A DNA stretch of 64,000 nucleotides from Azolla caroliniana (lineage: Eukaryota; Plantae; Polypodiophyta). A model generated the notes under the pieces. The model made no database searches. It saw only the letters and a program-made list of their open reading frames with translations, and was not told the DNA's origin. The stretch is taken from assembly GCA_043228905.1 (NCBI GenBank), contig JBHGNT010000003.1, positions 25,792,001 through 25,856,000 on the forward strand. The letters run 5' to 3'. This document shows positions 3,149 to 27,699 of the stretch, piece after piece (position 1 is the first letter of the stretch; every line of letters starts with the position of its first letter). Position numbers and translations under genes: made by a program.

Positions 3149-3177
3149 CGGTCCAGCTTCATCCTCCCCTACCGCTC

Positions 3178-3195: not shown

Positions 3196-3199
3196 AAAA

Positions 3200-3864
3200 T
3201 GTCGCGAAGATGCGTGTGCGAGCGTGCTTCGCTTGAGCGGGACCATCGGGGTCTTGGACCAAGGAGGATGTCCGTCAAGGTATTGAGAAGAGGACAATGT
3301 GAATGTAAGATTGGAGGAAGACCTATTACACTTGAGAAGATTGAAGATTGTACACTTTGAGAAGTAGATAAATAATTACAAGATAGATGCGAAGAAGAAG
3401 AAATAGAAGCTTATATTATTGATGGTGATGATGATGGTCATATCATATTGAGCCCCCCCCTTTACACAAGCCATACTAGGGGTTTTATAGGTTTGTCCAT
3501 GCACAAAACCATGGGCTTGGAGCCATGGTTTCTGTGCACACAGTTTTGCTTTGTGACATGCAAAAAACCATGGGCTTAAAACCGTGGTTTTGTGTACATG
3601 GTTTTGTACGTTTGTTTCCTATGGAATACTGAATATGAGAAAGAAATATAGAACATCTAAAGCACTTAGTAGTAGCTTTAGTGGTAAGGTAATTGCCTCT
3701 TATCTTAGAGGTGCAAGGTTCAAATCCTACTTGCAACCCTCTACATGCACTCAATGCCATTGTGACCTAGGTTTATTTATTTTCATTTTTACAAGTATTC
3801 GTGAAATGTGTGTGGATCCTCAATTTTTTACTTTTTCTCGCACTAGACATGCCACATCACGACA
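3200..3864 (-). repeat. 5' LTR of non-autonomous element
   Basis: Near-identical to 387-1051. Confidence 0.95.
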
Positions 3865-5844
3865 GCGTGGATATACCCGATGAAGAAGAAGAGTGAAGTG
3901 CTCTCCCACTTTCAAAGGCTCAAAAGCAAAGTGGAGAAAGAAACCGGTCGGCACATTCGATGCCTACGATCGGACGGAGGAAAGGAGTACTTTTCCGATG
4001 AGTTCACCTCCTACCTCCAAGGTGAAGGCATTCATAGAGAATTCTCATGCTGACACACTCCCCAACAAAACAGAGTAGCCGAGAGAAAGAATCGGCAAAT
4101 TCTCGAGGTAGCACGCGCCATGATGCATGAGAAGCACATGCCGAACTTCTATTGGGCGGAAGCGGCATCCATGGTCGTCTATCTCATGAACTGGTGCACC
4201 ACCAATGGAGTCCACGAGCTTACTCCATACGAGATCTTCGTTGGAAGGAAGCCCATCCTCTTGTATCTCAAGTTGTTCGAAAGCATTGCGAATGTACGCA
4301 TCCCGAACGAAAGTCGAGAGAAACCCAACGCGAAGTCGGAAGAATGTATCCTCATAGGATACTTGTCCGCGAAAAAGGCGTACAAGTGCTTCAACCCTTC
4401 AACCCAAGCGGTGTAGATAAGTCGCGACGTTGTTTTCGACGAATCGGCATCTTGGTATAAGCCCGATGCGACTCCATCTGACCCGATTGAGGAAGAGTTG
4501 AACGCCAACTCGGACGACGAAACTCAGCCAAGTCCACCGAAGGACAATCCAAGCTCTACCGAGCTAATTGGCCCACAAGAACCTCCACGCGATGAAAACA
4601 CGTCGCGGCCAAGTCCGACATCGAACAAAGGCAAAGGTAAGATGCCCAAATATGAAGTCGACGACCACCCCGACGACCATGATTCGTATGATTCGGCTCG
4701 CTCACTAGACAATGAGTTCGGTGTACCCATCATGAGGACACCCGGAGTAAAGAAGGCACTCACATCGACAAACGAGAAACTCCGCCGCTCATCACACGTG
4801 AAGACCCAAGTCACTCGTTATGCCTACAACGAGTATATGGCACTATATGCAAATTGGTAAAAAGTACACACCAAGAGCTTGGAACAAGAGGATATACAAC
4901 TTCTTACGATCAATCGACTTTAAGCAATGTGCTCCAAATGCAAGTATATATGTCAAAATGAAGGATGGGAAACAAGTCATCATCATAATTTACGAGGATA
5001 ATCTAGTACTTACTGGTGACCATGAAGACTGTAATGGCCAAACACAAGAGTGTTTGAAAACTGAGTTTGAAATGACAGGCTTGGGGATTCTACACTACTT
5101 CCTTGGAATTGAGGTTTGGCAAACCTCGGTTGACATCTTCATGTCACAAAGAAAGTATGCAACAAAGCTCTTGAAGACCTTTGGGATGATGGACAACAAG
5201 TCGAAGTTGACTCCAATGGAGTCAAATTGCAAGTTATCCCAAGAAGTCTCGTCACCAATAGTTGACATAAGGAAATATAGACAACTAGTAGGAAGTCTAA
5301 TTTTCTTATGCAACGCTAGGCCGGATATTTGTTTTGCAGTCAGTGTGGTGAGTCCATTCAGCAACAAGCCGAAGGAGACTCATCGGAAAGCTGCACTACG
5401 TGTATTAAAGTAAATTGTGGGTACCTTAGTGGGTATTGCGACTCTGACTAGGCTGGAGATACTGATTCCAGAAAATCAATTTCTGGATATTGTTTTTCAA
5501 TAGGCTCTAGAGTTGTTTCAAGGAGTAGTAAAAAACAACCAACAATGGCACTATCTTTAACGGAGGTAGAATACAAAGTAGAATGTGAGGTAGTTTGGCT
5601 AAGAAGAATCCTTATGGATGTGGCGGTTCCAATAAGGACGAGAACGGTATTGAGGTGTGACAATCAGAGTTGCATGGCCATTGCCAAGAACCCTGTATTT
5701 CATGCAAAAACTAAACACAAAGAGATTCAATATCACTATGTGTGGGAGCTAATAAATGATGAGAAGTGTGGAGCTTGAGTACTGTTTGACATAAAAAATT
5801 GCCCAATTCCAAGTGAACTCAATGAGTTGACCATTGAGGTGGCA
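3865..5844 (+). mobile_element. Ty1/Copia remnant: integrase core, deletion junction (~4842), C-terminal RT and RNase H
   Basis: WIYPMKKKSEV...CLRSDGGKEYFS...AERKNR; then PRAWNKRI...IIIIYEDNLVLTGD...LHYFLGIEV...RPDICFAVS; RH SKKQPTMALS...CDNQS...KNPVFHAKTKH; frameshifts and stops. Confidence 0.92.
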
Positions 5845-7376: not shown

Positions 7377-9093
7377 TTACTCAGGAGTGAACGATAAAGA
7401 CAGCTTGACCTCTCCTTTGAACTTTCCATTCTTGAGGACGACACCGTAAGGTTTTGATGTGATCTTCCCACAGTTGAAGGCCTCATCCAAAGGAACCCTT
7501 AAGAATTCAAATAAAAGCATACACAATATTCCGATTAGCATATAAAGAGCAATATTTAGATTTTCAGGAGAGTGATTAAAAATAAATAAAACAGAAGATC
7601 TTTAAGATTATTAAGAGGAAACAGCACATTTTTTAAACAAAATCATATGAAACATTTCAAATTAGGAATATTTTGGTCCTTAGAAAGAGAGATTGAAAAA
7701 ACAAAAAACTGGATCATTAAGCTTATCGAAGAAGACAATAATTTTTGAAATAAGAAAGTGAGTAAATTGACATAAACATTTGAATGAAAAGATCAGGAAG
7801 CAGTAGTTTTGAGTAGAAAAATAGGAATATAAATTATCGTTGACGAGATTAAACAAGAAGAAGATGAAGACAAAAGAGACATACGTGACTAGGCCGAGCT
7901 CATCATCTGCTGATCCAAAGTCTTCATCCATGACCTCAAGCAATAATTCAGTGATCCCTTCATCCACATGAAATTCAAAATTTTGATTCCAGGTTGGATT
8001 ACTGCCTTGATCTGAAAAATAATATAGATATTAAGTAAACAAAAAAAGATGAATAAAAGGTCATAATGCAAAAATCAATAGAATCTGTAAAGAAACAGCG
8101 ATACATTTCTGGTCTTTATGAACAAAGACATGGATCAAAATGAGCAAGGGAACTCAATGCATGATTTGGAAAAAAAAAGAGCAAAACATAACAGATAAAA
8201 CTATAGGATTTCTGAATAAAGAAAACAACAAAAAACAAACAAATAGATAAATATATCATATGCAAAAAAGAAAATTCAAAGAGTATATGGTTGTCTCAAA
8301 CACAAAATCATAGTTTCAAAATCGCCATTACTTCTTTTAACTACTGCACAAATTGATCAGATGTAGAAAAGAACCAATAATAGGTATAAAATGTGGCCTT
8401 TCTGAACAAAGAAACAAGCAAACTAATAGATTGTGACTTCAGACTTGACTTTCCATTTCATTACTGAGTTGCTCCAAATTTCCGGTTACCGATGGAAGTC
8501 TTTTAAAAAGAACTAGAAACTACCTTGAGCATAGGCTCGACAATGCAGCATCAGTCTAATGGAAAAATAGAACAAGTGCATCAAATCATTGAGGATATAC
8601 TTCAAGATTATGTGTATGCTCTATGTCTATGCGTATGCATGTCTGTGTGTGCGTGTATACGTATATGTAGGTACATGTACACGTATAGGTATTTATGCAT
8701 ATATGTGCACATATAGGTATGTATGGGTTCATGTAGAGGTATGTGTACGTACACACACATATATATACTTATACATATGCATATTATGTATACATATACA
8801 TATTGACAGAGAGAGGGGAAGAAGAAATTACTACTAGCAACATTGGATTTCTTGCGTTGGTTCCCGCAGCTTACGATGACATACGGATCCGACTTGGCTG
8901 CAGAAACCAGTAGTGGTGAATGTATGAAGAGAAAACCATAGGTTTATTACACAAAAGGAAGGCAATAACGATAGGGAAAAGAAAAGAGACAGACGAAAGA
9001 TATACAGGTAGATAGATAAATCTTACAGAAGAAATCGGCGGACATGAGACCACGAGCACTCACAAGCAACAATTCGAGCTTTCCACGAGGCAT
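7377..9093 (-). CDS. Single C2-domain Ca2+/phospholipid-binding protein (elicitor-responsive ERG / 16 kDa phloem protein-like); exons 9093-9027, 8897-8832, 8011-7885, 7497-7377
   Basis: Spliced translation MPRGKLELLLVSARGLMSADFFSKSDPYVIVSCGNQRKKSNVASNQGSNPTWNQNFEFHVDEGITELLLEVMDEDFGSADDELGLVTVPLDEAFNCGKITSKPYGVVLKNGKFKGEVKLSLSFTPE*; all GT-AG introns with consistent phases. Confidence 0.93.
8440..8615 (+). mobile_element. Eroded Ty3/Gypsy integrase fragment in intron 2 of C2 gene
   Basis: ELETTLSIGSTMQHQSNGKIEQVHQIIEDILQDYV resembles [33 protein letters not shown]. Confidence 0.65.
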
Positions 9094-9510: not shown

Positions 9511-9931
9511 TCACACTAGGCCCTCACATGGGGTTTTCTACTTATTTAGGTCGTGAATGGCTAATGTAGTGGGGAATGCATCCAACTATATGGCTTTTCA
9601 ACTTATTCAAGGCAAAGTATGGGTAACCTATGGCCATCAAAGCACATGGGGTTTTCTGCGTATTTTTTTTTTCCAAAAGAAATATACTTCCATTAGTTTT
9701 CAGAAAAGTCATAAAAACAACATACAAAATTTTCCCCAACTCATCTTTATAAGACGATGGTTGAGGAAACAAAACTTTGAACTCCAAAATAGACGAAGGT
9801 AGACAACTAATTTGAAAATTATTCTATAAATAGAACAACCAATCTGAAAATTATTCTGTAAATGGCTTCCAAGGTAGAGAACAATGTATTCCATGTTATG
9901 CTTCTTCAAGACAACCACGTTCCTTATGCAC

Positions 9932-10089
9932 GTTTGTAAACACATCAATCATCTACTTCCTCTTTCCACATTTGGTTACCACCAAATTCCAACGTTTGTA
10001 AACACAAACCTAATGCTTCCTCTTTCCACATTTGGTTACCACCAAATTCCAACGTTTGTAAACACAAACCTAATGCTTCCTCTTTCCAC
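9932..10089. repeat. 60-bp tandem repeat, about 2.6 copies
   Basis: 9961-10020 and 10021-10080 are identical. Confidence 0.95.
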
Positions 10090-10140
10090 CTCAGTCATGC
10101 TACTTGTTACCACCCATTTTCAAGTGAACCATTTCCTTTG

Positions 10141-10560
10141 GTTGAAGGGTTTTCCTTTGCCAATGCTCCAAAGAAATACAATATCAGGAGTAGCATAAAA
10201 TCCATGAGCTGACAGATCAATACGTTGGAAATATCAAGCACTCGCCAACTTTGCGACTGATGAAAACGTTCCCTTCTCAGCCACAATCTTCCTGCGAGAC
10301 TTTATTTCTTCACATGCATTTAAAACTGCCTGACCATACAAGTCTGATCTTGCTGAAGCTGTTGTTGGAGAAGCCTTTGGAACCTTATGTGCTTGTCTCA
10401 GAGATAAGCAGTGAACTCAAAGGACTACTAAATAAAGTAATCGCAATCTATACAATTTCGGTATGCAATCCCTGTCCCATCTCAACTCCACCATGTGGTA
10501 CAAAAACACTTCCATCTATATGTAGTTGAAATAAAACCCCATCCTTTTGGTGAATTCATG
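10141..10560 (-). pseudogene. XDH: Xanthine dehydrogenase molybdopterin-binding domain fragment, intronless, inactivated
   Basis: Manual translation: [27 protein letters not shown]...PLSSLLISETST(frameshift)KVPKASPTTASARSDLYGQAVLNACEEIKSR...KLASA*YFQRIDLSAHGFYATPDIVFLWSIGKGKPFN, collinear with plant XDH. Confidence 0.93.
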
Positions 10561-10589
10561 TAGAGATTGTTTGTCAGACTCTTTGTATA

Positions 10590-11730
10590 CCATCTTGGCA
10601 TGTTGCCAATGTCCACGGAAATCCTGTATTAACATCAAGAAATTAGTCTAAAGATTTCCTCACCTACTCACGATAGTATGCTTCGACCCCCCCACCATCT
10701 TCAGTCATCCTTATAACAGAAAAGTTCTTCATACAGTCCACATCAGCCATCTCAGCGATTAGCATCTTGCAGATTCTTGCCAATGTCCACTAAAATCCTG
10801 CATAATCAACAGAAATTAGTATAAAAGTTTCCTCACCCACTCATGATAGTCGGCTTCGACCCCCCCACCATCTTCACTCATCCGTATCTCATAAAAATTA
10901 TTCCTTCAATCCACATCAGCCATCTCGTCGATTAGCATCTTGCCAATGTCCACGCAAAACCTGTATTAACAACACAAAAACAGTTTACAAGTTTCCTCAC
11001 CCACTCATCATAGTCGGTTTCGACCCCCCCACCATCTTCACTCATCCTTATCATAAAAAAAATGAATTTCTTCATTCAGTCTACACAACCATCTTGCTAC
11101 TAAGCAATTTGCCAATGTGCACTAAAATCCTGTATTAGCAACAGAAATTAGTGTAAATGTTTCCTCACCTACTCATGCTATTCTGCTTCGACCACCCCAC
11201 CATCTTCACTCATCCTTATCACATAAAAAACTGCTTCATTCAGTCCCATCAAACATCTAACCGCTTACCATGAAGGGCCTGTAAGAAAATAACAACAAAA
11301 TTTAGGTGTAAATAATTTCCCCATCTCCACCATGATATACTTCTGTCGTCGCACCATCTTCACTTGTCCTCTCTTCACGAGAAACATGATGCTTCAATTC
11401 TCACTACCATCATGAATCATCATAATGAAAATACAACTTGCCCCCGCATCAAACCTTATTTTAGCCCGCAACACCACCATGATTCTCTCGTCTCTAAAAA
11501 CTAGACAAATTGCTTCAATACCTCATCACCCATCTCGATTTATACCATTTCAAACCTGTAATGACTCCTAATCCCCTTCATTTTCCACATCCACAATGTG
11601 CTTCATTTCTACATCAACCATCTGTTCGTTCACCACCTAAAACCTGTACAAACAACAATAGCGTAAATGTATTGTGTGCATCCCCTCCTAAAAATGTACT
11701 TCAGCCCGCCGTCAACACCATCATTCATCC
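10590..11730 (-). repeat. Degenerate ~165-175 bp tandem array, probably PPR-coding derived
   Basis: Unit cttcgacccccccaccatcttcactcatccttat at ~10681, 10854, 11018, 11186; minus strand gives ...IRMTEDG/RMSEDG... as in the 20599-21814 copy. Confidence 0.7.
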
Positions 11731-12116
11731 TGTAAAGAATCAAGACATAGATTCTTGTGAAGCGGAATAGGTGTGAACTGTGTGTGTGTGTGTCTCTCTC
11801 TATCTCACACACACACACACACACAGAGTATACGCAAGGTTAAAAGTATATTGACAAAGGAGAAAGACTCAACATTATACAAGGTGGGAGGAGGGTGCTT
11901 TATGTAGTCACCCTCTCTCTTCATTAACTACAAGCCTCATGGAGCATGGGGAATGGGAAAGCTCATAAGTTATGTGTCATAGAATATGATTCTATGACTC
12001 ATATTAAATGCTAGAATACAAAGTGGTGACATAATGGTGACTCTTGACTGTTGGAGTGTCTCTTCACTCTCAAGGTGAGTTCACACACTAGACCAAGTTG
12101 AGCTTGATTCTCAACA
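11731..12116 (-). repeat. Copia 3' LTR
   Basis: Direct repeat of 16832-17217 with a few substitutions, small indels and an inverted microsatellite. Confidence 0.95.
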
Positions 12117-15100
12117 CGCCCCCTCAAGCTCAAGTCGGGTCGGTTTCATACGGTATCCGAAATCCGCTTCGACTCGCATCGGCTCGCTTTATGCGGAGTT
12201 GCGGAATCCGTGCTCCAACTTGCGTTGTGCGAAGTTTGTGCTTCGGCTTGCGTGCGTAGTTGCGAAGTCTGTGCTTCGGCTTGCGTCTTTCTTCGCAGCT
12301 TTGCGCGGTAGATCGGCTCTCCGCTACTTCGTTGCGTGGTTGCAGAATCCACGCGTTATTGCATAGTGTCTTTAGTACTCCCCCTCAAGCTTGGCAGGTC
12401 AGGGATCGTCAATCCGAGATCGGTCATGAATTGCCATAGCTTGTCGGCTCCTAAGGCTTCTTTAGTGAAGATGTCGGTCGTTTGAAGATTGGTGCTAATG
12501 TGTTGTAGGGCGACATCGCCAGCCAGAACGCGCTCTCGGATGAAGTGATAGTGCACTTCGATGTGCTTTGTCCGCGCGTGGAACACCGGGTTCCGAGCCA
12601 GATAGATACTGCTCATGTTGTCACAGTAAAGGGAAGTCGGATCCTTGATGGGTACGCCCAGATCCTTCAAAATCCACTTGAGCCATACGGCTTCACACGC
12701 AGCTATGGTTGCGCCCTTGTATTCCGCCTCCGTACTCGAAAGAGCGACGGTAGGCTGCTTCTTACTACTCCAGGATATTGCTCCGTTGCCGAGGGAGAAA
12801 ACAAATCCGGAGGTTGATCTTCTATCGGCTTTGTAGCCGGCCCAATCGGCGTCGGTGTACCCCTCGAGTCGTATTGGCATCGCAGTCTTGTAGAGGATGC
12901 CGCAATCCATTGTGCCACTCACGTATCGTAGAACTCGCTTAGCGCAATCCAAGTGAGTATCACGCGGTGTTTGCATGAATTGGCTTTCTAAGGAGACCGA
13001 CCGGATAACTGAGATCGGCTCAAGTGATCGTGAGGTAGATGAGACTCCCGATGAGTTGTCGATACTGAGTCGGCTCACACGCTTTGGTGCCAAAGTGCGC
13101 ATCTAGTTTGAGATTATGATCGAGTGGGGTTGCCACGGATTTGCACTCAGCCATCCCGAACTTGTATAACAGGTTGAGGATGTAGTGTCGTTGAGAGATC
13201 ATGATTCCGGCCGGAGTCCGAATTACCTCGATGCCGAGGAAGTAGTGGAGCTCCTTCATGTCCGTCATCTCGAACTTGTCGGAAAGGAGGGATTTGACCT
13301 TATTGATTTCGACGAGATGCTCACCTCCAATTACTAGGTCATCCACATATAAGATGATGACGATCGGACTTGCGGAATCGCTTCGTATGTAGAGGGAGTT
13401 GTCCGATTTTGACATACGGAAGCCGATTTGATGAAGATATTGCGTTATCTTCGAATGCCAAGCACGCGGTGCTTGCTTGAGGCCGTAGAGTGGCTTCTTG
13501 AGTCGGCATACAGCTTTTGGATGAGTGCTCGAGTTGAAGCCGGGTGGTTGGATCCTGTACACCTCCTCTTCTAATTCGCCTTGTAGAAAGGCGTTCTTGA
13601 CGTCCATTTAATGGAGGTGCCACCCTTTCGCCGCGGCAATCGCAATTACGGTCCGCACCATCGTCATCTTTGCCATCGGGGCAAAGGTCTCTTCGTAGTC
13701 GACGCCATGTGTCTGAGCGTATCCTTTCGCAACGATTTGAGCTTTGTAGCGGTTTACGGAGCCATCAACGTTATACTTCACCTTGTAGATCCATCTGCAT
13801 CCAATCGCCTTTTTGTGTGGTGAGCTGAGAATGAGATCTCACGTCTCATTCTTCCGTTCTGCCTGCATCTCCTCATTCATTGCTTCGATCCATCGCGGGT
13901 CCTTCGCGGCTTCCTAAAAGGTTTCCGACTCCCATACTATCGTTACCTTCATCATAAAGGCGTAATGGTAATCCATGTAATCGTTGTAGCCGAATCGGCT
14001 TACGGGGTTCTTTTCACGAGTGGATCGGCAGAGTTTTTCATTTGCAGAGATGAGGGCTTTCTTAGCTCCGATTGGTACCTCGAAACCGCCGAACTCACTG
14101 TCGAGTGAGTGAGTCGATTCATTGTCGTCGAAGCGATCGTCTTCATATTCCGCCATTTTCGCCTTGCCTTTGTCCATCTTCGGGTTAGGCCGTGATGTGC
14201 TTTGATCGCTCAAAGGCTTTTGTGGTCCGCTCAGTCGGGTCGTGATCGGACTTTCTTCGAACATGCGCGTAAGATGATCTTCATCCTCTATCTCTTGTTC
14301 GGTGGATTTCGGGTCGAGCGGAGTCGGAGGCGAAGTTGTCTCTGGTGCGTACCAGGATGCGGACTCGTCAAAACGACGTCTCGACTTACCCGAGATTTTC
14401 GAGTTGAGGGGTTGTAGCACTTGTACCCCTTTTGCTCCAGTGAGTATCCTACGAGAATACATTTCTCCGACTTCGGGTTGAGCTTTTGACGCTTCTCGTC
14501 GGGGATGTGCACGTACGCAATGGAGCCGAATATCCGAACATGTGATAGGTTCGGCTTCTTTCCGAAGAATCTTTCGTGCGGAGTGACCTCGTGCACGCCG
14601 GATGTTGTGCACCGGTTCATTAGGTAGACTACCGTATTTGCCGCTTCGGCCCAATATGACTTGGGCATATGCTTCTTGTTCATCATGGCCCGCGCTACTT
14701 CGAGGATGTGCCGATTTTTGCGCTCGGCTACTCCATTTTGTTGCGGAGTGTGTCGACAAGTGAATTCTCGCCGAATTCCTTCCTTTCGGAGATACGCCGT
14801 GAAATCATCCGAGAAGTACTCCTTGCCGCCATCCGATCGAAGGCATCGTACATGTCGGCCCCTGGCTTTCTCGACTTCATTCTTGAACTTTTGGAAGTGT
14901 CCGAACACTTCGCTCTTTTGCCGCATCGGATAGATCCAAATGTGCCTAGAAAAGTCGTCGATGAAGAGCACGTAATATCGGCATCCGCCGAATGTCGTCG
15001 TTTGGGCCGGACCCCATACATCGGAATGAATTACGTTGAGTACGCCTTTGCTCATGTTCCGCTCCTTCAGAAATGGGTGTCGGTGTTGCTTGCCGAATTG

Positions 15101-16831
15101 GCACGCTTCACATACACCTTCAATCTCCTTCTCTTTGAATGTCAAGAGTCCAATGACGACTCCTTTCGATTTCATTGCTTTGAGTTTGTTTAGATTGATG
15201 TGGCCGATTCGCTTATGCCATAGCTCTATGTCGGAGTCAGCTTTCGAGCTTTTCGCGAACATGGCGGATTTCATCTCGTGCGAATCGAGAATGAACATTC
15301 GGCCCTCTCTTCTTCCGTGTGCGATGATTCGGCCTTCTTTTTCGATGAAGCACCCTTCTTGATCGAATCGTACTTGCATCCCTTGCTCAACCATTTGGAC
15401 GACCGAGACCAAATTCTTCGTGATGGTGGGAACATGCAAGACATTTTTAATGTATGTTTGCTTACCTCTTTCGCCGAACGGGACATTGTCGATGTGCCGA
15501 ATCGGGTGCGTAGTGTCATCTCTGGTTTCGACATAACCGGGTTGCTCCGGCTCTCGAAGTTCGAGAAACCATTCTTTATGGGATGTCATATGGTTTGAGG
15601 CTCCGGAGTCTACAAACCATACGTCCTCCGGATTGAGGACACTAGTTGAGGTAGAGGCTGACATAGAGTTTGCTCTATGTTTCATCATGAACATTCCGCA
15701 ACGGTCGGAGTTGCGTGCATACATTCCGCCACAATCTTCGTAGTCGGAGTTGTTCCCGTACATTCCGCTATACTCTTCGTAGTCGGAATTGTGTGCGTAA
15801 TTCGTGAGTTGTCAGCTTGTGGAAGCCGAGTCACGCATCTTATTTCGACACTCTTCTTCGTGGTGGCCGAGCTTTCCGCAATATCCACATTCGGTTGCGT
15901 TTTGACGGCTCGGGCCGGAGTGGAAGCTCCCCCTTCTTGCGAAGGTTCCTCATTGGCCTCCGTTTTGCGGCCGAAATTGGGAGTTGTTGTCATAGGTCGA
16001 ACCTCGTCCGTCGTGTCCTTGGCCGAAATGGCCTCTCGCTCGTCCGCATCCTCTTCCTCCATTAGAGTGCGTGTAGAGCATGTGGCCTTCCGACTCATTG
16101 CTCCTCGTACGCTCGTGGTTTTCTTCGACCAATAGCATTGATTGGAGCTCGAAGAAGGAGGGAGATTTCTCCCGTGCTAGAACGGCGGTTCACATCGCGC
16201 CGAACCGTGGTGCGAGGCCGCCGAGGCATATTTGAACCATCTCATCATCATCTATACTTACGTTTATTGAGCCGAGCGAGTCGCAAAGCTCCTTGATCTT
16301 CAAGGTGTATGTCGTGATGGACATGTCCCTTTGTTGAATGTTGTTCAACTCTTGGCGGAGTTGAAGCTTCCTCGCGGTCGTGTTGGCGCCGAAAATCTTT
16401 CGTAGATTTTTCCACGCTTCCTTCGGCGTCTTGGCTTCTCGAATGTAACCGAGCATGTGGTCGTGAACACATGTCACCAAACAATACATCACGCGGTTTG
16501 CGGCTTGCTCCCATGTCGCGTACCCGGGAGCCGCTTCGGCGGGTCGGTCTTCATGCACTCCTTTGATGTAGCTCCAATAGCCTTGTCCGACAAGGTATTG
16601 GTGCATCTTGTATTCCCAAGATGCGAAGTTGTTTCGAACCAACTTCTCGGTAGGGAGAGCGCTCCTCATTTGAGTATTCATTATGTTGATTCTTCTTCTC
16701 TCTTCGAATGCGAGCTATGTAGCGACGCTACGATAGCTATGAGCCAGTTCTTGGTCGTCGGCGTAGAGCACAACACACGATCACGATGAGGCGAATGGGC
16801 TAGATCGAGCTACCAAATCGCTCTGATACCA

Positions 16832-17217
16832 TGTAAAGAATCAAGAGATTGATTCTTGTGAAGCGGAATAGGTGTGAACTGTGTGTGTGTGTGAGATAGA
16901 GAGAGAAAGAGAGAGAGACACAAAGTATACACAAGGTTAAAAGTATATTGGCAAAGGAGAAAGACTCTACATTATACAAGGTGGGAGGAGGGTGCTTTAT
17001 GTAGTCACCCTCTCTCTTCATTAACTACAAGCCTCATGGAGCATGGGGAATGTGAAAGCTCATAAGTTATGTGTCATAGAATATGATTCTATGACTCATA
17101 CTAAATGCTAGAATACAAAGACTGTGGTGACATAATGGTGACTCTTGACTGTTGGAGTGTCTCTTCACTCTCAAGGTGAGTTCACACACTAGACCAAGTT
17201 GAGCTTGATTCTCAACA
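16832..17217 (-). repeat. Copia 5' LTR
   Basis: Abuts iMet PBS; TG...CA termini. Confidence 0.95.
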
Positions 17218-17308
17218 CATCCTTACCAACTATAAATACTTCCATGACTACAAACAAACTTAATGCACTACTGACCTAATGACAAATTAATGTGGACTTC
17301 CTATTTAA

Positions 17309-20018
17309 TCATGTTGTATTCAATATAAATGGCATTGGTGGCGAAAATAACCACCGAGGTGGAACATAATTCCACTTTACATCTTCACCTGCTACATCCA
17401 AGAAAATAGGAATAGTTGACCAGACTCTTCTAATTCTCTTTCTTTTCCGGTTAGACACATTTCCAAAACCCTTATAGCTATCATATTCACCTTTAACCGT
17501 ATTTACCAATAATTCCCAGAAAGATTTAACTTGATCCACAACATTAGTTTGTTCATCATTATATGTTTTAGAACACCTTGCTTTCCAAATAATCCATAAG
17601 GCCAAAAAGGAAATAATGTTCCAAACATAACACCTAGAAAAGAACTTGACTCCCTGCAAGGAGCTATTTGTAATGTACACCTGAAAACTTTTCACAGGTA
17701 AAGTCAACGATGAATTATGATGATGATAAAAAATAGTTTCTTGAGCCAACGTACCCCAAAACATTGTACCCCACGTGAATTTAGTAGCCTTGTACTTACG
17801 ACGTAAAAGCCTAAGAATACGAGACCAAAAATATTTGGCCGTAACACATTCCCAAAAAGTATGATGCAATGTCTCAGATGCAAAACCACACCTACCACAT
17901 GATCGATCAAGTATTGTTCCCCTCAATAAAGCTCCTACTAGCAATGCATAATGAATCATTAACCATCGAAAGTGCAATACCTTGTTCATACATTTAAGTG
18001 ACCAAAACTGTTTCCAGAACTTCAACATATATGAAGATGACACATTACCTTCCTCCTAATATTTTTTCCCCACAAGAATTGAGTCTATCTCATTTAACAA
18101 AACCTTTCTACCCAATGACACAGAATATGCGAAAAATGGAAGAACTTTCGCTTGCGTATTGTCAGACATGGGTAACTTCCAACCATAATCTAATGGATCC
18201 CACTGCAGATCAGCAATTGGTCTAGAGTGTAAAACCCACATATGAGATGAATACTTAGCAATTAATGGATTAGGATCTATAAATATCTTTTTATCTAACC
18301 TAGCAATTACTCTCACTGGCAGCTGCTTGGCAGAAGACATAATTGAAGACTCACCCTCCACTAACAACAACCTACCATTATCCAAAACTTCATAAAAGTA
18401 GAGGTTGCCATTTTGAGTATAAAAAAGAGCTCCTATAAGTATATTCAGTCTCGAAAACATATCATACCAATTCAGAAAATGACCAAAACGCAAAGTTGGT
18501 AGTGTTACCTGGTACACCGTTGACACTTGAGAGAGCATAATGTTTGCCCCTCTGAAATTAGACACCCTAGTCTTTTGGTCTTGCACTGAAGTCTGCAGGA
18601 AATTAATCCAATCCGCAACCGTACGAGTTGGTCTGTTATCCATTGCAGCCCAAGATAACCTAGGTCGTAAACCCAAAACACATGCCGCTTCATCAATAAA
18701 CAAAGGATGCCATAACAACAGTTGACGCATTAATTGATGATATGTTTTTGGTGGCAAGAAAACAAGTGCTCGACGAATACTTTCCCATGCCCTTAGAATT
18801 CCATTAAAAAAACGTAAAGACCCAACTGTCAATTTAGACAACGGAAAATCTTAGTTAAAGAACCATCTAAGACTATCATGCCATTGACCACCAACCGATG
18901 GTTTAAATTTATATAAATGACACATCCAAAACTTTTTCCATAAGTCCTGTCCTAGCAATAAACACCTAACAACATGTTTAACAAGTAATGCTTTACTTTG
19001 CATAAAAGGATCAATCAAACCTAAACCTCCTTTTTGTTTGGGTTGTATAAGAACCGACCAAGCTACCTTTGCTATAGTATTGTGTACCGTATCATTTTCC
19101 CAAATAAAATTTCACACTAGTCGTTGAACTTTAAGCATTGTTGATCTAGAAAACAACCATGTAGACGTTATATATCAAATGGAGGACAAAAGCACAGAAT
19201 TAGCAACAACTACACGTCCTGCTAAGGATAACTTTTCCTTATTCCAATATATTAGATTATTTCTTAATGTTAAGAATAAGGGCGCAATCATATCATCTAC
19301 CTTTAATCCTAACCCTACTCTACATCTTAAATACCTAATGGAGTGCCCTTTAGGAATCCACGTGAAACCTGCGCTAGGAGCATTAAATGGAGGATTTCCC
19401 GAAGCCACCCAAAAACCTGATGATTTATCCCAATTGATCAACGCACCCGATGCATCTGCGAAGTCATCCACAGCTTTTTGAACCTGCAACAAGTTAAATT
19501 GTGAGGCGTGAATATAAAGAGTTGTATCATCAGCAAACTCATTAACAAGACCAACATCTGCAAATGGAAATGTTAGACCTTTGATATTAACATGTTGAGA
19601 ATTTAAGTGTACAAAAAACGCTTCAGATACTAATAAAAACAGAAAAGGAGCAAGTGGACATCCTTGTCTTACTGATCTTGAAATAGAGAAACGCCTACCA
19701 ATATCCCCTGCAAATAAAACCGAACTATGTGCATTACGATATAATGTTGAAACTCCTCGTATCCATTTGTTTGGAAAACCCATCTTAAGCAAAGTACCCT
19801 CCATGAAATTCCAATCCACTCTGTCATAAGCTTTTTCGAAACCCAGAAATAGCATTGCCAACTCTTGATTCTGCCCTTCAGCAAAAGCTACCATTTCCCA
19901 AAAATGAATAATATTATCAAAAATACTTTGCTCTTGTATAAAACCTATCTGAGAATCATGAATCAATTCAGAAAGATAAGGTTGTAACCGTCTAGCTAAC
20001 GTTGTCGTGAAGATTTTC
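17309..20018 (-). mobile_element. L1-clade LINE ORF2 (RT plus zf-RVT), 5'-truncated, disrupted
   Basis: FEKAYDRVDW, VRQGCPLAPFLF, EFADDTTLY, LSLAGRVVVANSVL, LQWDP, CGRCGFASETLHHTFWEC, C-terminal WNYVPPRWLFSPP. Confidence 0.95.
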
Positions 20019-20289
20019 GGCAATGGTGTGAAAATCACATAAAACGTTCAAAATCAAGTGTCAATCATTTAAACAATAATAGTGAATATACTAATTCTAA
20101 GTAAGTTTAATATCTTAGTATAAAAGACGAAGATCTTGAAGAGGTGCACTTTACTACATAAGAAACGGACATCTAAGTGTCAACTTATGTGGGTAAGAAG
20201 TTGCGAAAGAAAAAGAGAAAATTATGAGATATCCCACATAGACAGGACGAATAAGGCTCTCACCATATATAAGGCTCAAGTAACCACGT

Positions 20290-20520
20290 GTTGGAAGGGT
20301 TTACAGACGGTCGGCTTATGTTGATACCAGCCAGTCCACGTCTGGATACGTGATGACATATGCAAGGGGGGCGGTCTCTTGGCAGTCGAGGTTGCAGAAG
20401 GTTGTGGCTCTATCGACCACAAAAGTGGAGTATATGGTTGTTGTCGAAGCCACAAAAGAACTATCAGACTGCATTGTGACAATCGAAGTGTCATCCACCT
20501 TACAAAGAATGCCTCCTACC
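20290..20520 (+). mobile_element. Copia RNase H remnant (continues at ~21815-21890 after an insertion)
   Basis: STSGYVMTYARGAVSWQSRLQKVVALSTTKVEYM...LHCDN; downstream WLRERIEEREFTLVKIHKDDNGS. Confidence 0.8.
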
Positions 20521-20598
20521 TCTTATTTCAAAGATAATTGTGAGGTATATAGTAACTTCTTCTTTCCTTTTTAACTTACAGGTTGACAGGAAGGACAT

Positions 20599-21814
20599 AA
20601 AAGAGGCAAATGTGATAGGGGTAGTCTTGTGAGGTGATAGGGGTGAGATGGTGGATGGGGAAAATGAAGCATCTTCTGATTTTGGATAAGGATGTGTGAT
20701 GATGGTGTTGAGGGCTATAACATAATTTAATGAGGAGAAGAGTAGAGTAGTGTCATTTTGTTTATGTAGGTAAACGATATTGGTGGTAAATCAGCGAGGG
20801 TGAGATGGTTTATGTGGATTAATGAAGCACAATTCATGTTTTTGATAAGGATGAGTGATGGTGGTGTGGGGTTGAAGCATAGTCTCTTGAGAAGACTAGA
20901 CTCATATAGTTGTTCGTATGTACAAGATTTTGGCGGTATGAAGCAGCATGTATGTTTTTTGGATAAGGATGAGTGATGAGGGTGTAGGGGGCGAAGCATA
21001 TTCTCACCAGGAGATGAGGAAACAAGACTCGTTGTATTGTTGTATGTGCAAGATTTTGGTGGTATTCAGCGAGATGGTTGATGTGGACTTAATGAAGTAG
21101 AATTTATGTTTTGGATAAGGATGAGTGATGTTGGTGTGGAGGCCGAAGCCTATTCTCATGAGAAGATGAGGAATCTAGACTCATTTTATTGTTTATGTGC
21201 AGGAATTTGGTGGTAATCGACGAGATGGTTGATGAATATTTAACGAAGCAATTTATATATTTTTTATAAGGATGAGTGATGATGGTGTGGCGGCCGAAGC
21301 ATAAACTCATGAGGAGAGGAGGACACTTGACTTAATTTGTTGGTGGTAATCCGATAAGATGGTTGATGTAGAAAGAGAAAGCATACTTGTTGCGTTTACA
21401 TTCACGAATGTGAAATGTGGTTTTCTTGAAAAAGCAGATAACGTACTTGATCGCCTTCAAATCCAAGATGTACATGCATGGAATACACTATTATCTACCT
21501 TGAAAGCTTGTGGTAGCATTCGGTTTTTGGGATAAAGATTATGTTGAACAACCGCAGGTTGAAGAAGTATTGAAATGGTTCATAACTATGACCTGCAAGT
21601 GCTTGTTTCCGAATATAGCTACTTTTGTTGTTGTCTATGGATATGGATAGCTTGCAATGTGTCTATGGAATAGCTTCCCATTAGTGGATTGTTTTCTCTA
21701 CTTTGGAGTACGTAGATTTGTTTCCTCAGCCATTGTCTTACACAAGACGGGCTTGGGGAAAAAATACTTTGTATTGTTGTAGCCGTTATGACCTTTTTAT
21801 GTAACTAATGGAAG
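20599..21814 (+). mobile_element. 5'-truncated retroposed copy of PPR-derived array plus LINE tail
   Basis: Flanked by GGAAGGACAT (20589-20598, 21810-21819); ggataaggatgagtgatg units; VKCGFLEKADNVLDRLQIQDVHAWNTLLSTLKACGSI and DYVEQPQVEEVLKWFITMTCKCLFPNIATFV; ends GTAACTAATGGAAG. Confidence 0.8.
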
Positions 21815-23279
21815 GACATCCTTGGCTTAGAGAGAGGATAGAAGAAAGGGAGTTTACCCTGGTGAAGATCCACAAGGATGATAACGGATCTTAAACTCCT
21901 TGGACTATATCTCCATAAAGGCCAACCAGAATTCACATTACATGTATTCTGATTTCTAGTTGAAAAAGTCATTTGGAAATAAGGAGTAAAATGTGTGTGG
22001 AAGATTTCATCGACCATTATGCAACATTTATTTCGCCAATAATATCTACTCTAGCTCGTCTATTGATACGTAGTTACAATAAAAGAAAACTACTTTGGAG
22101 ACTTGTACACTTTGTCAAAGCTTTTGAAACACTTCTTCATCTACTCTAGACTTCTCTTCATATAATCCAACATTTGCCGTATAGCAAGTTACCCAAAGTT
22201 TGACTCGCTTTCCGTCTTCATAAATTCCAAAAGTTTCTTAGCAATTTGGCTCTTTACCATATAACCTAGGGTCCTATTGTATTGGTTCAGAATTTGGTTC
22301 TACAAACACTCTCAATTAATTATATAAGTAAAATATTGAGCCATCAACTTCTGATTCATTTCTTTCATTTTTGTCATGTTTCCCATAACATTTGTGCTCT
22401 ATTATTTTGATGTTTCAAATTCATGTCATAACTATTCTTTGTGAGTTCAAATGCACACATTTTTTACATATGCTATATATGATTTAAAAATCAAACGACA
22501 CCAATTTCTGTGGGGTGTTTAGGGTTTACTGACAAATCAAAACAGCGAATCATTTGTTAATGATATAAATACTAAAGTGAACTCTTTCAGTAATAGCAAT
22601 CATAAATGGTGCTTATTGCCATACATTAACTTTCTTCCATAGAAACCCAGTGTGAAATGGTAACAAACCCTTTTATGTATAGAAATAAGTTTCATATCCA
22701 ATGAGCTTATTCTGTCATATTTGGTTTTTATTGTAGGAATACACATCTTCAGCACAAATCTAGCTCCAGAACGTTCAAAAAATATTCTTTTATTGATATA
22801 AATAACATTCGTTAGTGCAAAATTAGCATCAGAATGCTAACAAATCCTTTGGAGTGGCTTTTACGTAACATGACTGGCTTTGTTATTATAGAAGCACAGC
22901 ATACACTTTACGATTGCTCATTTAAAAATAGAACTTATTTCATGCAAAGACATCGTACGATCTTACAGGTCAGAACTAGAAACACTTATATTCAAACTCT
23001 TGCACCAATTTGGAACACTCATCCACACTTCTGATACAATTTTCCAATAACAAATCTAACATAGAATGATAAGGAATCCATAATTTTGCATGCACACCTT
23101 ATCCCAGCTCATTGAGAACAGACTTATTTAATGCAAATTACATATGCAAAACTCCCTGTTTGAACTTCCAAATGGTGGTTCACATCAATATGGCACCAAC
23201 TATAACACTGCCATCCTAAACATTATAGGAATATTAACAATATATATTTATCCATTCACTAGGCAAAAGTAGATGCCTC

Positions 23280-25366
23280 TCACCCCATAACATGAATTCT
23301 TTCTTGAATGATGGTTCGGCAGGATGGGCAATCTGTCATTCCTTGCTTCTGATGAAGTTCGTTACACTTCACACACACAATTTGATGTGCACAAGGTAAG
23401 AAAACCACTGAGCATTCCTCTGACATACACATAACACATTCCCAATCTCTTTGAATATCTCCTCTTGAGTCTTCAAGATCGGCGAGCTCTTGTAAGAAAC
23501 GGAATCGTGTGTCTTTTAAAGCCTGCAAACCATTTGCATCTGAAGAGTGAGAGACAATTCCTGATTTTAGTTCTTTATTGCATGATTCTGATGCTAGTTT
23601 CAATTGCTCGAGCTCATCTTCGAGCCTCTTAAGATCATCTCTATGTCGTTGCAAATCAGCATCGGATTTCTGCATCCAGATGTCTTCTTTTCTCTTTGTT
23701 GTAGCTTCCACTTGTTCCTTGGCCCATTTCTCAGCGTTTGCGAGAGTGATTGCCTCTTCCTTCGCTTTCTCTTCCTGTCTCCATCTTATCTACAAAATGA
23801 AATGGGTATTTCTTTGTTGAATCAATTATTGAAGTATGGTTATTTCTCCAGAGATTATTGAATACATCAGGACTACCTTCTCTTTTTCGCTCTTTTTTTA
23901 GTGGTTAATTGTATAAGAAATGCAAGGAGTAATGGATTGTCAATAGAATCAAGTCAAGTCTTAAATTAGGAAATAAGTTAATAACTATGGATCCTTCAAG
24001 ACATCAGAACTAGCCTCCATTTCATGTTGTTTGACATTCAACTTATCATAATTGCTCCTATTTCCTTGATATACTGTATATGCAGAAATAGACTTATAAT
24101 AAAATCAACCATTGAATTAGGATATCTCTATAGGAAATCTACTAGAACAATATGAGAACTGACCTCAGCTTCATGTTGTTGACGTTTCACTTCTCCTAAT
24201 TGTTCTTGTACTTGAGAGATCTGTTGTTTCTGTTTCAACAACTCATCTAGCATCTTTGTCTTCTGCTTCTCCCATGCTTGTATTTTTTTCGAAGATTTCT
24301 TCTCTCGTTTCACAACCTCTTGACACTTTGCATTAGATTCTGATGCACTAAGCTTAGCAGCTTCCATTTCAGCCCTCAACTCTGCGTTTTCAGTTTCAAG
24401 TTTCCTTACATTTACATTAGCCCTATCCACTTGTGCACTAGCTTTACGAAGCGCACTCTCCATTTCAGTAAGTCTTTTCATTGTACTATCTTCTAGCGCT
24501 TGAGTATCTCTCTTTAAACGCAAAATCTCTTCATGCTCTAACCTTAAAGATTTGAGTTCGGCCATATCTTTGCTAAATTTGCATGCTGCTTGCAATGCTT
24601 TTTGATGAGCCCATTTTTTTCTCTCCTGGAGTTGAACTTCCAACTCTCTCACTTGCTGAACTAATTTCATATACATTTCATCCTTCCTTAATGAGGATTT
24701 ATCAGCACTACAATCTGTTAGCGTTTGTGAATTCACACTAAGGAGTGAATGTGAGTCTCCTACATCTTGTTCAGCTCCATTATCTACAACTGATGCTATG
24801 GCCAGAGATAACTCTGTGCCAGGACTACTAAACCCTACTGTGGTTTCTTTGCAATCACAACAAGGAACCACATGATCAGATATTCCAGAAGTAGTTACTT
24901 TACTAACTTGTTTATGCTTCTGAGGTTTACCATTCGACGATGGGATTTCATGTCTTGGTACAAATGATGATTGAGCAATGTTTGTTCCTGAGACAACACC
25001 ATTATCGGAAGAAATACTCACAGACGAGAGAGTGGCCAAGTTATGACCTGATATTTGCATACCCCTTGTAAGTTTTCTTTCACCATAGCAACAAGCATCT
25101 AAAGAAAGTGAAGTGTTCAAAGCAAGATTATGGATTTCCTGTAAACTCTCACTAAAGCTCAAAGCATTTCCTGTGGTGTTTTCATTAGCCTGGAGAAAGC
25201 CTTCACCAGGTTGATTTATAATCGATGGCGAGTTTGTGCCAGTATTTTCTGGATGCGTATTCGTAGAATGCGTTGGTGATGCCTGAGATAAATGTGGATG
25301 TGAGATCCAGACTGAATAGCCAACATAAGAGCCGTCATTGTTTGTGTAACAAAGAGAACGGATCAT
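23280..25366 (-). CDS. RF298/PIR2/MND1-interacting protein 1-like coiled-coil RING E3 ligase, N-terminally shortened; exons 25366-24164 and 23789-23280
   Basis: KWAHQKALQAACKFSKDMAELKSLRLE...RKLETENAELRAEMEAAKLSASES; C3HC4-type RING RDWECVMCMSEECSVVFLPCAHQIVCVKCNELHQKQGMTDCPSCRT; GT-AG intron in phase 0. Confidence 0.88.
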
Positions 25367-27699
25367 ACCTTCAAGAGAGTAGTACTATCTTCCATCACAG
25401 CTCCTCTACTGTAAATCTTCATGAGCAAATGCGAATGCATTCATGAGTATTTTATTTGTAAGTATTTCAGAACGATAATAATTCTTGCTGATAATGTATT
25501 TAAGTCATTAAATATATTGTCCCAAATAAAGCAACTTTAAATTTCAGACAATTACCCATCTCTATTTTGTCCTTAAATGAAATTTACCAAGGAAATCATT
25601 TTAATCTCACAGATACGATGATGATATCTTGGAAATTCAATCACCTGCTGCTATACTTTTGTAAATGTTTACATACCATCAGTAAATGTTTAAGGTAAAT
25701 GTAGAATCTCATATTACTGCATGTAAGGAACATTTTGTACACAGATCTCGGAATCATATTAAGTCATTTACTTTCACTAGTAACAAATATTTCACAATGT
25801 AGTTGCCTACTTGATTAGTGATTCACTTTGGGTGAAAGTTCTAAAATATGATACTATGTTAATGAAAGGCCCAATAAGAAGAGTGAAGAGTGGTACTAAT
25901 TAGCTTCTATCTCTGCATTATTGCCAACAAAACTAAGATTGCAATAATGCCTCATCACTGAAACATTTTCACCTTGTTATGAATCTACCGTTTTAAGGGA
26001 ACTATATAAATCTTTCCTAGTGGCTATCTCCAGATCTGGCACAAATGAAGCAAACTAAAGGTTCAGTAAAGTGGGATTGTAGAATTAGATAGTTGTACCT
26101 CCATATACATGACCATCTAAACTAAATCTACAATAAGGATACATTTCCAATACTTTCAAAATGTTCACCCTACCACACAACCACCTTGAAGAAAATAGAT
26201 TTAATCTTGCCTTAACTAGTCTATGACTTGGAACTGTGCAATTCAGAGATCGGTAGCATCATGCATTACATACATACATACACATATACAGCATATATGT
26301 GTAAACACACAACATATACACATACACACACAGATATATAACAGCATCTGTATAAGAATCAGAAAACATTTTTTTTTGAATAAATAAATCTTTTAGGAAT
26401 TTTTTAGGAGATCTACCCTTCATGTCAATCACATTAGCTAGGCCCTATTATACCTTAGATATAGCGATTACCGAAATGCAATCATAAATTTCTAGTGAAA
26501 GTATTACATAGATCAATCAACATAACATATCGTCACTATGTAGACCAAACAGCTTCTGAATGAGAATCAGTTAAAACATTTTATACCTACTCCATCAATA
26601 AACATAATATGTCTTCGCTCTATGGACAGAACACCTTCTAAATGGAAATCACATAAAATTTTGTTTTTAATCCATTCACAGACTTAATTTGTCTTGCCAT
26701 GTAGAGAGAGGAAATTCTGAATGAAAACCAGATACACGGTTGGTTTTTATTCCATCAATAAATACATAATATATATGTCAACTATGTAGAGAGAAAAGCT
26801 TCTAAACGAGAATTAGATAAATATGTTAAGCTCCTCGTGACCTCTATAAGGTGAAATACCACTAACGCTATTGATATGAAGACAGAACAATAACAAAATT
26901 TTAAACTCCTCATGATCACTATAAACTGAAATCACCACTACTGCTCTTGTAAGAAGATGACAATATTATAAAAAATTTATAACTGGTTTCCTTTCAATAG
27001 CATCCATTGTTGTGTGGTTTCCACTTAGCTATATGAAGATGAACAATGTCATAAAAAAGTTCTAAATGGTTTACTTTCTATAGTAATCATTCTCGTATAT
27101 TTTCCATTTATTCTTTGCCTACCTGCATGTAGAAAAGTTACGGAGAAAAAATTTCCGTTCAAAATTTTATAAAAGGAATCTTAAGAGATTTCATCAGAAA
27201 TCACGCACAGGAAGAAAGCAAAGATAAGGATGAAAAGAATCAACGGGTCTCACAAACAAATAATTGAGTTGAAGATCGAAGAAAAGGAGATATAGGATGT
27301 GTTCCTCCAAAGATCCCCAACAAAGTATCCATTTTGTTTGCTTAAGTTAAACTGTTTCCACGGCATAAAGTCGCTATTTTCTCTGGTTGAATTCCAGAAT
27401 AAGCGAGAGGGAAGTTTAAGAAACATAAATACCTGAGATATAAAGGGTTGAAAGAAGACGAAGGAGAAGAAGCAGAAAAGTGGCGATGTCGATGGAACCT
27501 GCAGTTGAAGAAGGACAGGAGAAAGGGCTGTAAATTAGCAGAGAGAGAGAGAGAGAGACTGACTGACCTCCACACACAAATTACAGGAAAATATCAAAAA
27601 TACCCCTCGCATAATTAATAAAGGGTACCCTTCTTCTGTTTTGCAAATTATCCATTTGATTTAATCCCCCCCCCCCCCCACCCCAAACAAAAAAAAAAG

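What the first reader, a model, noticed from the sequence alone, without database searches (positions are those of the whole stretch)
9662..21814. LINE lineage whose 3' region carries PPR-gene-derived repeats: a candidate vehicle for PPR retroposition
Seen: removing the nested Copia joins the LINE ORF2 stop (17309) to ~2.1 kb of degenerate repeats ending in the LINE tail and poly(A) at 9662. A second diverged, TSD-flanked copy of this region (20599-21814) reads, in the LINE sense orientation, VKCGFLEKADNVLDRLQIQDVHAWNTLLSTLKACGSI, DYVEQPQVEEVLKWFITMTCKCLFPNIATFV and repeated NEA..F.IRMSDDGV.AEA. Copy A gives IDVFTNVHKERGCLEEA*..WNTLFSTLEA. Established: these resemble PLS-class PPR motifs (MYAKCG.L..A..VFD......V.SWN; GY..HG..EEAL..F..M...G..PN..TF; LKACGSI). 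PLS-PPR editing factors are greatly expanded in ferns, and retroposition has been proposed for PPR family expansion. Inference: this LINE family stably carries PPR modules as 3' cargo and has mobilised them at least twice. The other two LINEs here have only ~200-280 bp 3'UTRs. Caveat: no TSD could be found for copy A.
Basis: partly seen in the sequence, partly recalled or inferred. Interest (0 to 1): 0.85.

Follow-up and report, generated by a model that had tools for sequence, protein, structure and literature searches.

The report
Fern LINE carrying spliced gene cargo
A family of fern jumping genes (LINE retrotransposons) carries broken pieces of host genes (PPR and xanthine dehydrogenase) in its non-coding 3' end, one relative still holds an intron that six others lack exactly, so the cargo was likely picked up unspliced and then spliced while being copied through RNA, but the pieces are too broken to be a likely source of working PPR genes.

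Summary
The LINE, the nested Copia and the ORF2-array-tail link are real, and they are a family trait. The link recurs without the Copia in other loci and in 4 of 4 DNA runs laid. The pieces beside the tail are fern PLS-PPR fragments. The ~165-bp repeat array is not shown to be PPR-derived (score 11.5 against shuffles 11.1±1.7).

Locus L004 keeps a 352-nt GT-AG intron at a likely conserved XDH exon boundary; the window copy and five other loci lack it. The cargo was therefore likely captured unspliced, then spliced and retrotransposed.

The cargo lies upstream of a tail shared with LINEs only 24-33% alike in ORF2, so this is internal capture, not 3' read-through. The PPR cargo is collapsed and frame-broken (longest single-motif match about 40 aa), so 'vehicle for PPR family expansion' is unsupported. 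Copy B's TSD is doubtful. Verdict: a gene-capturing plant L1-type family, a new variant of known TE gene capture.

The parts
17309..20020 (-). LINE copy A ORF2 (RT + zf-RVT), 5'-truncated, with in-frame stops
   Evidence: Pfam RVT_1 E 1.2e-20, zf-RVT E 4e-8; best PDB match human L1 ORF2p E 4e-23, against R2 E 1e-6
17218..17308 (-). Start of the LINE 3' UTR, running into the first degenerate array unit
   Evidence: Contiguous with 11731 onward in L008; empty-site joint 11725->17218 in 4 of 4 runs
11731..17217 (-). Nested Copia LTR retrotransposon, not part of the LINE
   Evidence: LTRs differ at 23 of 381 aligned sites; 5-nt target duplication
10600..11725 (-). Array of 150-173-bp units of unknown origin, with splice-acceptor-like motifs
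   Evidence: TRF period 173 at 10603-11229; no PPR signal; branch-like motif plus YAG in 17 of 29 units, no shuffle control run; a 72-nt GT-AG piece of one unit is skipped in one contig of run X9
10548..10599 (-). Remnant of an unidentified captured segment, longer in L004 (with a 77-nt GT-AG intron) and in L008/L013/L014 (intron absent)
   Evidence: Alignment; no identification
10141..10547 (-). Captured xanthine dehydrogenase piece: one exon plus the start of the next, joined without the intron at 10249|10248
   Evidence: Pfam MoCoBD_2; L004 exon 71-76% identical to the 120 listed XDH proteins; intron kept in L004
9956..10089 (-). Partial array units; local 60-bp tandem duplication
   Evidence: TRF period 60, 2.2 copies; alignment
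9865..9955 (-). Eroded PLS-PPR piece of copy A (S motif and start of P motif)
   Evidence: Score 14.5, p=0.02; aligns with better-kept relatives
9662..9698 (-). Conserved LINE terminal motif and poly(A)
   Evidence: Shared with LINEs at +51317 and about -33035 whose ORF2s are 24-33% identical
20599..21349 (+). Copy B array (5 units); 5' end uncertain, possibly about 20550
   Evidence: TRF period 151
21350..21532 (+). Copy B PPR piece 1 (S motif, start of P, jump to an L-motif bit)
   Evidence: PDB PLS9-PPR E 2.8e-11 summed over repeats, best single stretch E 0.08; 1971 proteins at E<=1e-3, named top hits fern PPRs; profile score 45.8
21533..21640 (+). Copy B PPR piece 2 (rest of a P motif, in another frame)
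   Evidence: Score 30.0, p=0.005; homolog in L016 passes the Pfam PPR_2 cut-off, E 2e-9
21640..21819 (+). Copy B 3' segment and truncated LINE tail, no poly(A)
   Evidence: 76% match to A's end; family alignment

Best explanation
This is a multi-copy fern L1-type LINE family whose 3' UTR holds a repeat array and broken host-gene pieces between ORF2 and the conserved LINE tail; the pieces were likely captured from unspliced templates, then likely spliced in the LINE transcript and spread by ordinary retrotransposition as non-coding passengers. Shown: the order ORF2, array, cargo, tail in several loci; PPR and XDH homology; intron-containing and intron-less versions; sense polyadenylated RNA over ORF2 and an ORF2-array junction. 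Inferred order: (1) an ancestral copy took up a stretch of a PLS-PPR gene, which collapsed by deletions between motifs and partly re-duplicated; (2) one subfamily later took up a genomic XDH stretch (exon, intron, part of the next exon) and an unidentified segment inside the array; (3) host splicing removed the introns from LINE RNA and reverse transcription fixed the loss, for the XDH intron probably twice or once plus recombination; (4) 5'-truncated copies such as B and L002 dispersed PPR bits plus tail. For capture I favour break repair copying from an ectopic DNA template (about 55%) over template switching onto nascent pre-mRNA (about 35%); this was not tested.
For: ORF2-array link: L008 runs ORF2 (95% to the window), array, XDH, PPR, tail with no Copia and another 3' flank; L013 does so with a 74%-alike ORF2 end. 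Joint 10989->17315 in 4 of 4 DNA runs from 3 organism labels, depths 1439/328/98/451; empty-site joint in 4 of 4. Spread: 15 of 19 loci have the tail, 6 the XDH piece, 10 the second P piece; 0 shared among 16 3' flanks. L001, L007, L008, L013, L014 are 100% alike over the last ~230 nt with different flanks. Splicing: L004 has a 352-nt GT..AG intron between two XDH codons; the window copy, L001, L005, L008, L013, L014 lack it. L004's 77-nt GT..AG intron is absent exactly in L008, L013, L014. Among 120 XDH proteins, 5 gene models break at or within about 2 residues of that exon end and 5 just before the exon start, as expected at real intron sites. L004 has K at two sites as LINE copies do, where host proteins have E in 64 of 74 parsed (K in 0) and N in 104 of 104. 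Contigs of run X11 bridge array-XDH and XDH-PPR with 1 and 0 differences. RNA: two poly(A) runs show sense-strand depth of about 27-70 and 15-39 over most of the ORF2 3' part, and 53 and 23 reads crossing into the array linker seen in DNA.
Against: The 19 loci were chosen by a PPR-piece pattern, so they cannot show what share of the family carries it. They are short contigs of coverage 1-14 by their names and may be collapsed or chimeric; L013 looks mosaic. The XDH intron is seen in one locus only, and the host gene's DNA was not seen. A clear TSD was found in only 1 of 9 copies with a usable 5' end, plus one weak case. RNA depth over the PPR piece and tail of L008 is only 0-5, and much RNA on the XDH piece is host mRNA by its loose ends, so the best-expressed copy is not shown to carry PPR. 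No endonuclease or ORF1 was seen, because copy A is truncated.
Confidence: 0.82

Rival explanations
1. One reading: the LINE carries PPR modules as cargo and is a vehicle for the expansion of PLS-PPR editing-factor genes.
For: PPR pieces are real and mobile. PPR expansion in early land plants has been linked to retroposition (PMC13386178, passages; its flanking evidence concerns LTR elements).
Against: The cargo is collapsed (S, start of P, L bit, S bit, end of P, P), with stops and frameshifts. The longest single-motif match is about 40 aa, and no intact triplet was matched in 21 copies. The profile used covers S, P and L motifs only, so E/DYW domains were checked only by Pfam on A and B (0 hits). 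The array is not PPR-like. XDH rides in the same place. PPR is the largest gene family in the two Salviniales genomes, >2,000 and >1,700 proteins (PMC6786969, passages), so a chance capture of a PPR piece is unsurprising.
Confidence: 0.07
2. The 150-173-bp array itself arose by tandem amplification of a PPR P-motif piece and has decayed beyond protein-level detection.
For: B-type units read in one frame with spacing like the end of a P motif; the best unit scores 18.7 and ends at the P/L boundary. The element has duplicated a P piece internally in L012 and L016. 1 of 14 DNA comparisons between array consensus and cargo segments gave p=0.007.
Against: Consensus p=0.36.
Confidence: 0.3
3. The cargo came by 3' transduction: the LINE sat upstream of or inside PPR and XDH genes and read through them.
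For: Read-through explains intron-containing templates and is the textbook route for class I elements (PMC8616336, passages).
Against: The cargo lies upstream of a tail shared with LINEs only 24-33% alike in ORF2. The XDH piece has array sequence on both sides. Simple read-through would put cargo behind the tail.
Confidence: 0.06
4. The intron-containing locus L004 is an assembly chimera of a LINE copy and the host XDH gene, so no splicing during retrotransposition is shown.
For: One contig, coverage about 3 by its name; host gene DNA not seen.
Against: L004 has the LINE-type codon directly at the donor site and shares another derived codon with window copy A and L005. It also keeps a second intron outside the XDH exons. 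Even so, the other copies span the exon junction, which still needs an RNA step.
Confidence: 0.08

Closest known systems
Drosophila telomeric LINEs with captured host genes (TART-A/nxf2; aub and piwi captures; PMC13534243, passages read)
   Same: Non-LTR elements with internal host-gene fragments of 140-235 bp fixed in TE families and sometimes amplified inside the element.
   Different: Those are telomeric elements capturing silencing genes, with piRNA evidence. Here it is a dispersed plant L1-type family, the donors are PPR and XDH, intron-in and intron-out versions coexist, and no small-RNA data were seen.
Maize Bs1 (LTR element) and Katydid-At1 (TRIM), the plant transduction cases named in review PMC8616336 (passages)
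   Same: Class I plant elements carrying host gene fragments, several genes in Bs1.
   Different: Those are LTR-type, and Bs1 makes a chimeric protein. Here the carrier is a LINE and the cargo is non-coding 3' UTR.
Pack-TYPE DNA transposons (Pack-MULE, Pack-CACTA) and Helitrons (PMC8616336, passages; intron retention in Pack-MULEs is recalled)
   Same: Short fragments of several genes held inside the element.
   Different: They move as DNA, with no RT-linked poly(A) end. Here the introns were later lost exactly.
L1-like retrocopies in dicots (PMC4838847, passages) and L1/SVA transduction in humans (PMC8616336, passages)
   Same: L1-type machinery copies host sequence through RNA.
   Different: Retrocopies are separate mRNA copies and transductions are flanking sequence. 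Here the cargo sits inside the element and is inherited by its subfamilies.
Plant L1 lineages with a conserved 3' end, 'stringent' type (PMC3472496, abstract and opening text)
   Same: A terminal motif conserved across divergent L1-clade elements.
   Different: No consistent hairpin was found in single-sequence folds of 9 tails, and dependence on the tail was not tested.

Membership tests
L1-clade LINE | Non-LTR RT closest to L1 ORF2p | tested here: met
   PDB: L1 ORF2p E 4e-23 against R2 E 1e-6; no tree built
L1-clade LINE | C-terminal zinc-binding domain in ORF2 | tested here: met
   zf-RVT E 4e-8
L1-clade LINE | N-terminal APE endonuclease and ORF1 | not testable with these tools
   Copy A is 5'-truncated and no fetched locus reaches that far; no genome held
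L1-clade LINE | A-rich 3' end, 5' truncation, TSDs | tested here: inconclusive
   Tail in 15 of 19 loci, mostly A-rich, with many 5' truncations; clear TSD in only 1 of 9 copies
PLS-class PPR fragment (tail-proximal pieces) | Match to S, P and L motif models above chance | tested here: met
   L016 passes Pfam PPR_2; the window's own pieces miss Pfam
PLS-class PPR fragment (repeat array) | Match to PPR motif models above chance | tested here: not met
   11.5 against 11.1±1.7, p=0.36; DNA-level test inconclusive
Functional PPR retrogene | Open frame with tandem intact PLS triplets | tested here: not met
   No intact triplet matched in 21 copies
3' transduction | Host sequence lies downstream of the element's own 3' end | tested here: not met
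   Cargo lies upstream of the shared tail
Gene-capturing retroelement | Host-gene fragment fixed inside several independent copies | tested here: met
   XDH in 6 of 19 loci plus the window; 16 distinct flanks
Gene-capturing retroelement | Passage of the cargo through RNA (exact intron loss) | tested here: met
   Two GT-AG introns of L004 absent in 6 and 3 copies; the intron-containing form rests on one contig
Anti-silencing capture (TART/nxf2 type) | TE-derived small RNAs target the donor gene | not testable with these tools
   No small-RNA run was listed

The most novel reading that the evidence does not exclude
This is a 'Pack-LINE': a plant L1 lineage whose array of splice-acceptor-like repeats acts as a standing trap for host exons, so that subfamilies turn over by gaining and splicing new cargo. 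Its dispersed PPR fragments would make small RNAs that act on the host's largest gene family, the organelle RNA-editing factors.
Probability: 0.15. Interest if true: 0.85.

Novelty: new variant of a known kind. Interest (0 to 1): 0.55.

Why it matters
Gene capture in plants is known mainly from DNA transposons and a few LTR elements. [quoted passage not shown] Here a LINE family keeps host-gene cargo across subfamilies, and intron-in and intron-out forms coexist, which orders the steps: capture of unspliced sequence, splicing, retrotransposition. That makes the origin of retro-cargo testable in one genome. Practically, many LINE-borne PPR bits could add noise to motif-based PPR counts in ferns. 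It does not explain PPR family expansion.

Tried and rejected
No whole genome is held, so genome-wide copy counts and the test of intact PPR genes for the tail could not be run. Pfam PPR models missed all window frames; a fern profile built from 163 triplets was needed. The word-index search with B's 61-aa peptide gave 1 hit among 12 candidates, a Glycine PLS-DYW protein at E 0.023. The unidentified segment before XDH gave nothing in Pfam (6 frames), PDB (1 frame) or the Atlas (1 frame; best score 0.77). No TSD for copy A. Tail folding gave no shared hairpin. No RNA holder was listed for the stretch; the RNA runs laid came by species label. Summed contig depths are not copy numbers and were used only as a rough guide. 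L015 matches over only 88 nt and was not counted as an element copy. Earlier-finding look-ups returned nothing. Literature searches for a plant LINE with captured gene fragments or PPR cargo (open-access library only) listed no such report; I saw listings and, for six papers, passages or the abstract only, and no supplements.
Full report
SETTING. The window is plant DNA rich in mobile elements. Of the ten hits of copy B's peptide search that I looked up, eight are named Adiantum or Ceratopteris proteins, so the host is taken to be a fern; no call fixes the genus. No whole genome is held. Family evidence therefore comes from one pattern scan of metagenome contigs and two read layings.

ANATOMY OF COPY A (minus strand). 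ORF2 has an RT and a zf-RVT domain and several in-frame stops. It is closest to L1 ORF2p among solved structures, is truncated near 20020 and stops at 17309. About 90 nt later a Copia is inserted (17217-11731; LTRs differ at 23 of 381 sites; 5-nt target duplication). Behind it come an array of 150-173-bp units (to about 10600), a 50-nt remnant of an unidentified segment, an XDH piece (10547-10141), partial array units with a 60-bp duplication, an eroded PPR piece (about 9955-9865), and the tail with poly(A) at 9698-9662. The tail motif also ends the two other LINE lineages of the window, whose ORF2s are only 24-33% identical to A's. The tail therefore belongs to the LINE, and the cargo is internal.

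COPY B (plus strand, about 20599-21819). It has five array units, two PPR pieces in different frames and a tail cut short, and it lies inside a decayed Copia RNase H remnant. The 10-nt direct repeat is real. However, its 3' copy matches the family's own tail at 9 of 10 letters, and array likeness may reach 5' of its first copy (borderline). It may be a microhomology-primed TSD or a coincidence.

IS IT PPR? The 61-aa frame 21350-21532 hits designed PLS-PPR proteins in the PDB (E 2.8e-11 summed over repeats, best single stretch E 0.08). Its last 50 aa hit 1971 proteins at E<=1e-3. A profile from 163 PLS triplets of those hits finds only two places in the 64 kb, both in B. With a frameshift-tolerant score, B's pieces give 45.8 and 30.0 (p=0.005 each, 200 shuffles) and A's piece 14.5 (p=0.02). 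The consensus of 29 array units gives 11.5 against 11.1±1.7 (p=0.36, 500 shuffles). A DNA comparison of array consensus with seven cargo or tail segments gave 1 of 14 at p=0.007, not significant after correction and in another register. The best-kept relative, L016, passes Pfam PPR_2 (E 2e-9). Its pieces read in the order S, start of P, L bit, S bit (by eye), end of P, P, as expected of a PLS tract collapsed by deletions. No intact triplet was matched in 21 copies.

IS IT A FAMILY? All 19 scan hits match the window's element, 18 of them over more than 100 nt. 15 have the tail, 6 the XDH piece and 10 the second P piece. None of 16 3' flanks compared (14 loci plus A and B; L018 was missed by that script) is shared. 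L008 shows ORF2 (95% to the window, open over its last 473 codons), array, XDH, PPR and tail with no Copia. L013 shows the same 3' module behind a 74%-alike ORF2 end. L002 is PPR piece plus tail within a 12-nt TSD; it is the only clear TSD among 9 copies with a usable 5' end. Five loci are 100% alike over the last ~230 nt but have different flanks, which suggests recent activity, though collapsed assembly could contribute. Independently, 4 of 4 DNA runs hold a contig joining the ORF2 end to the array, and 4 of 4 hold the Copia-empty form. In run X9 the L008 flank has depth 24, while ORF2 bins have 1,400-5,200 and the PPR bins 1,070-1,610. This suggests tens of copies, but the tool warns that such sums are no copy number, and host PPR genes could add to them. 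The 19 loci were selected by the PPR pattern, so they do not measure how much of the family carries it.

SPLICING OF THE CARGO. L004 carries the XDH exon, a 352-nt GT..AG intron between two codons, and about 120 nt of the next exon. Window copy A, L001, L005, L008, L013 and L014 have the exons joined (L005 with a small deletion just after the junction). L004 also has a 77-nt GT..AG intron in the unidentified segment, absent exactly in L008, L013 and L014. The 120 listed XDH relatives are 71-76% identical to the L004 exon. Five of them break at or next to the end of this exon and five just before its start, which is indirect evidence that these are conserved intron sites. L004 shares derived codons with LINE copies rather than host proteins, which argues against a chimera with the host gene. 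By shared substitutions L004 groups with A and L005, apart from the L008 group, so the intron was lost twice or copies recombined (inference). One X9 contig skips a 72-nt GT..AG piece of an array unit (shorter side 29 nt, weak), and 17 of 29 units have a branch-like motif before YAG (no control).

EXPRESSION. In two poly(A) RNA runs of organism D (about 12% of each read), first mates lie almost only on the minus strand, which in most stranded libraries means sense RNA. Depth is about 27-70 and 15-39 over most of the ORF2 3' part, and 53 and 23 reads run from the ORF2 end into the same array linker seen in DNA. Depth over the PPR piece and tail is 0-5, loose ends show host XDH mRNA on the XDH piece, and only 3 and 0 reads are 99% alike to L008. 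The family is transcribed, but a transcript with PPR cargo is not shown.

HOW IT WORKS. See the best explanation: internal capture of unspliced host sequence into an L1-type 3' UTR, host splicing of the LINE RNA, reverse transcription, and dispersal as 5'-truncated copies. The cargo is most likely a neutral passenger. PPR is the largest gene family in the two Salviniales genomes (PMC6786969, passages), so a PPR donor needs no special cause.

KNOWN OR NEW. It works like Drosophila telomeric LINE gene capture (PMC13534243) and maize Bs1 (PMC8616336). It fails the tests for 3' transduction and for a PPR retrogene. Nine literature searches (listed under Tried and rejected) listed no plant LINE family with such cargo; subscription journals and Repbase were not searched. 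Verdict: new variant of a known kind, interest 0.55.

Noticed in passing
window 24694-35036 and 35137-45479: A 10,343-nt stretch is repeated with 100% identity on either side of a 100-N gap; most likely an assembly artefact.
   Followed up: no
window 9662-9698 (-), 51317-51345 (+), about 33000-33040 (-): Three LINE lineages only 24-33% alike in ORF2 share a terminal motif and a PPRWLF-type ORF2 end; this may point to sequence-dependent 3' recognition in fern L1s.
   Followed up: partly
window about 7380-9093 (-): A small multi-exon gene that looks like a C2-domain protein (recalled motif, not scanned) starts about 570 nt downstream of copy A's poly(A), on the same strand.
   Followed up: no
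L013:1-900: A diverged ORF2 end (74%) and B-like array units join a 3' module 99.5% identical to L014; either module exchange between LINE subfamilies within the array, or an assembly chimera.
   Followed up: partly
L015:384-471: An 88-nt piece of the element's PPR segment sits alone in unrelated sequence.
   Followed up: no
window 11731-12116 and 16832-17217: Only 4 of the 23 differences between the Copia LTRs are transitions, which is unusual; they may cluster in the microsatellite or be sequencing errors.
   Followed up: no
window 387-3864 and about 20050-20550: An LTR element with 99.5% identical 665-nt repeats (387-1051, 3200-3864), and a high-depth Copia-like remnant between copies A and B.
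   Followed up: no
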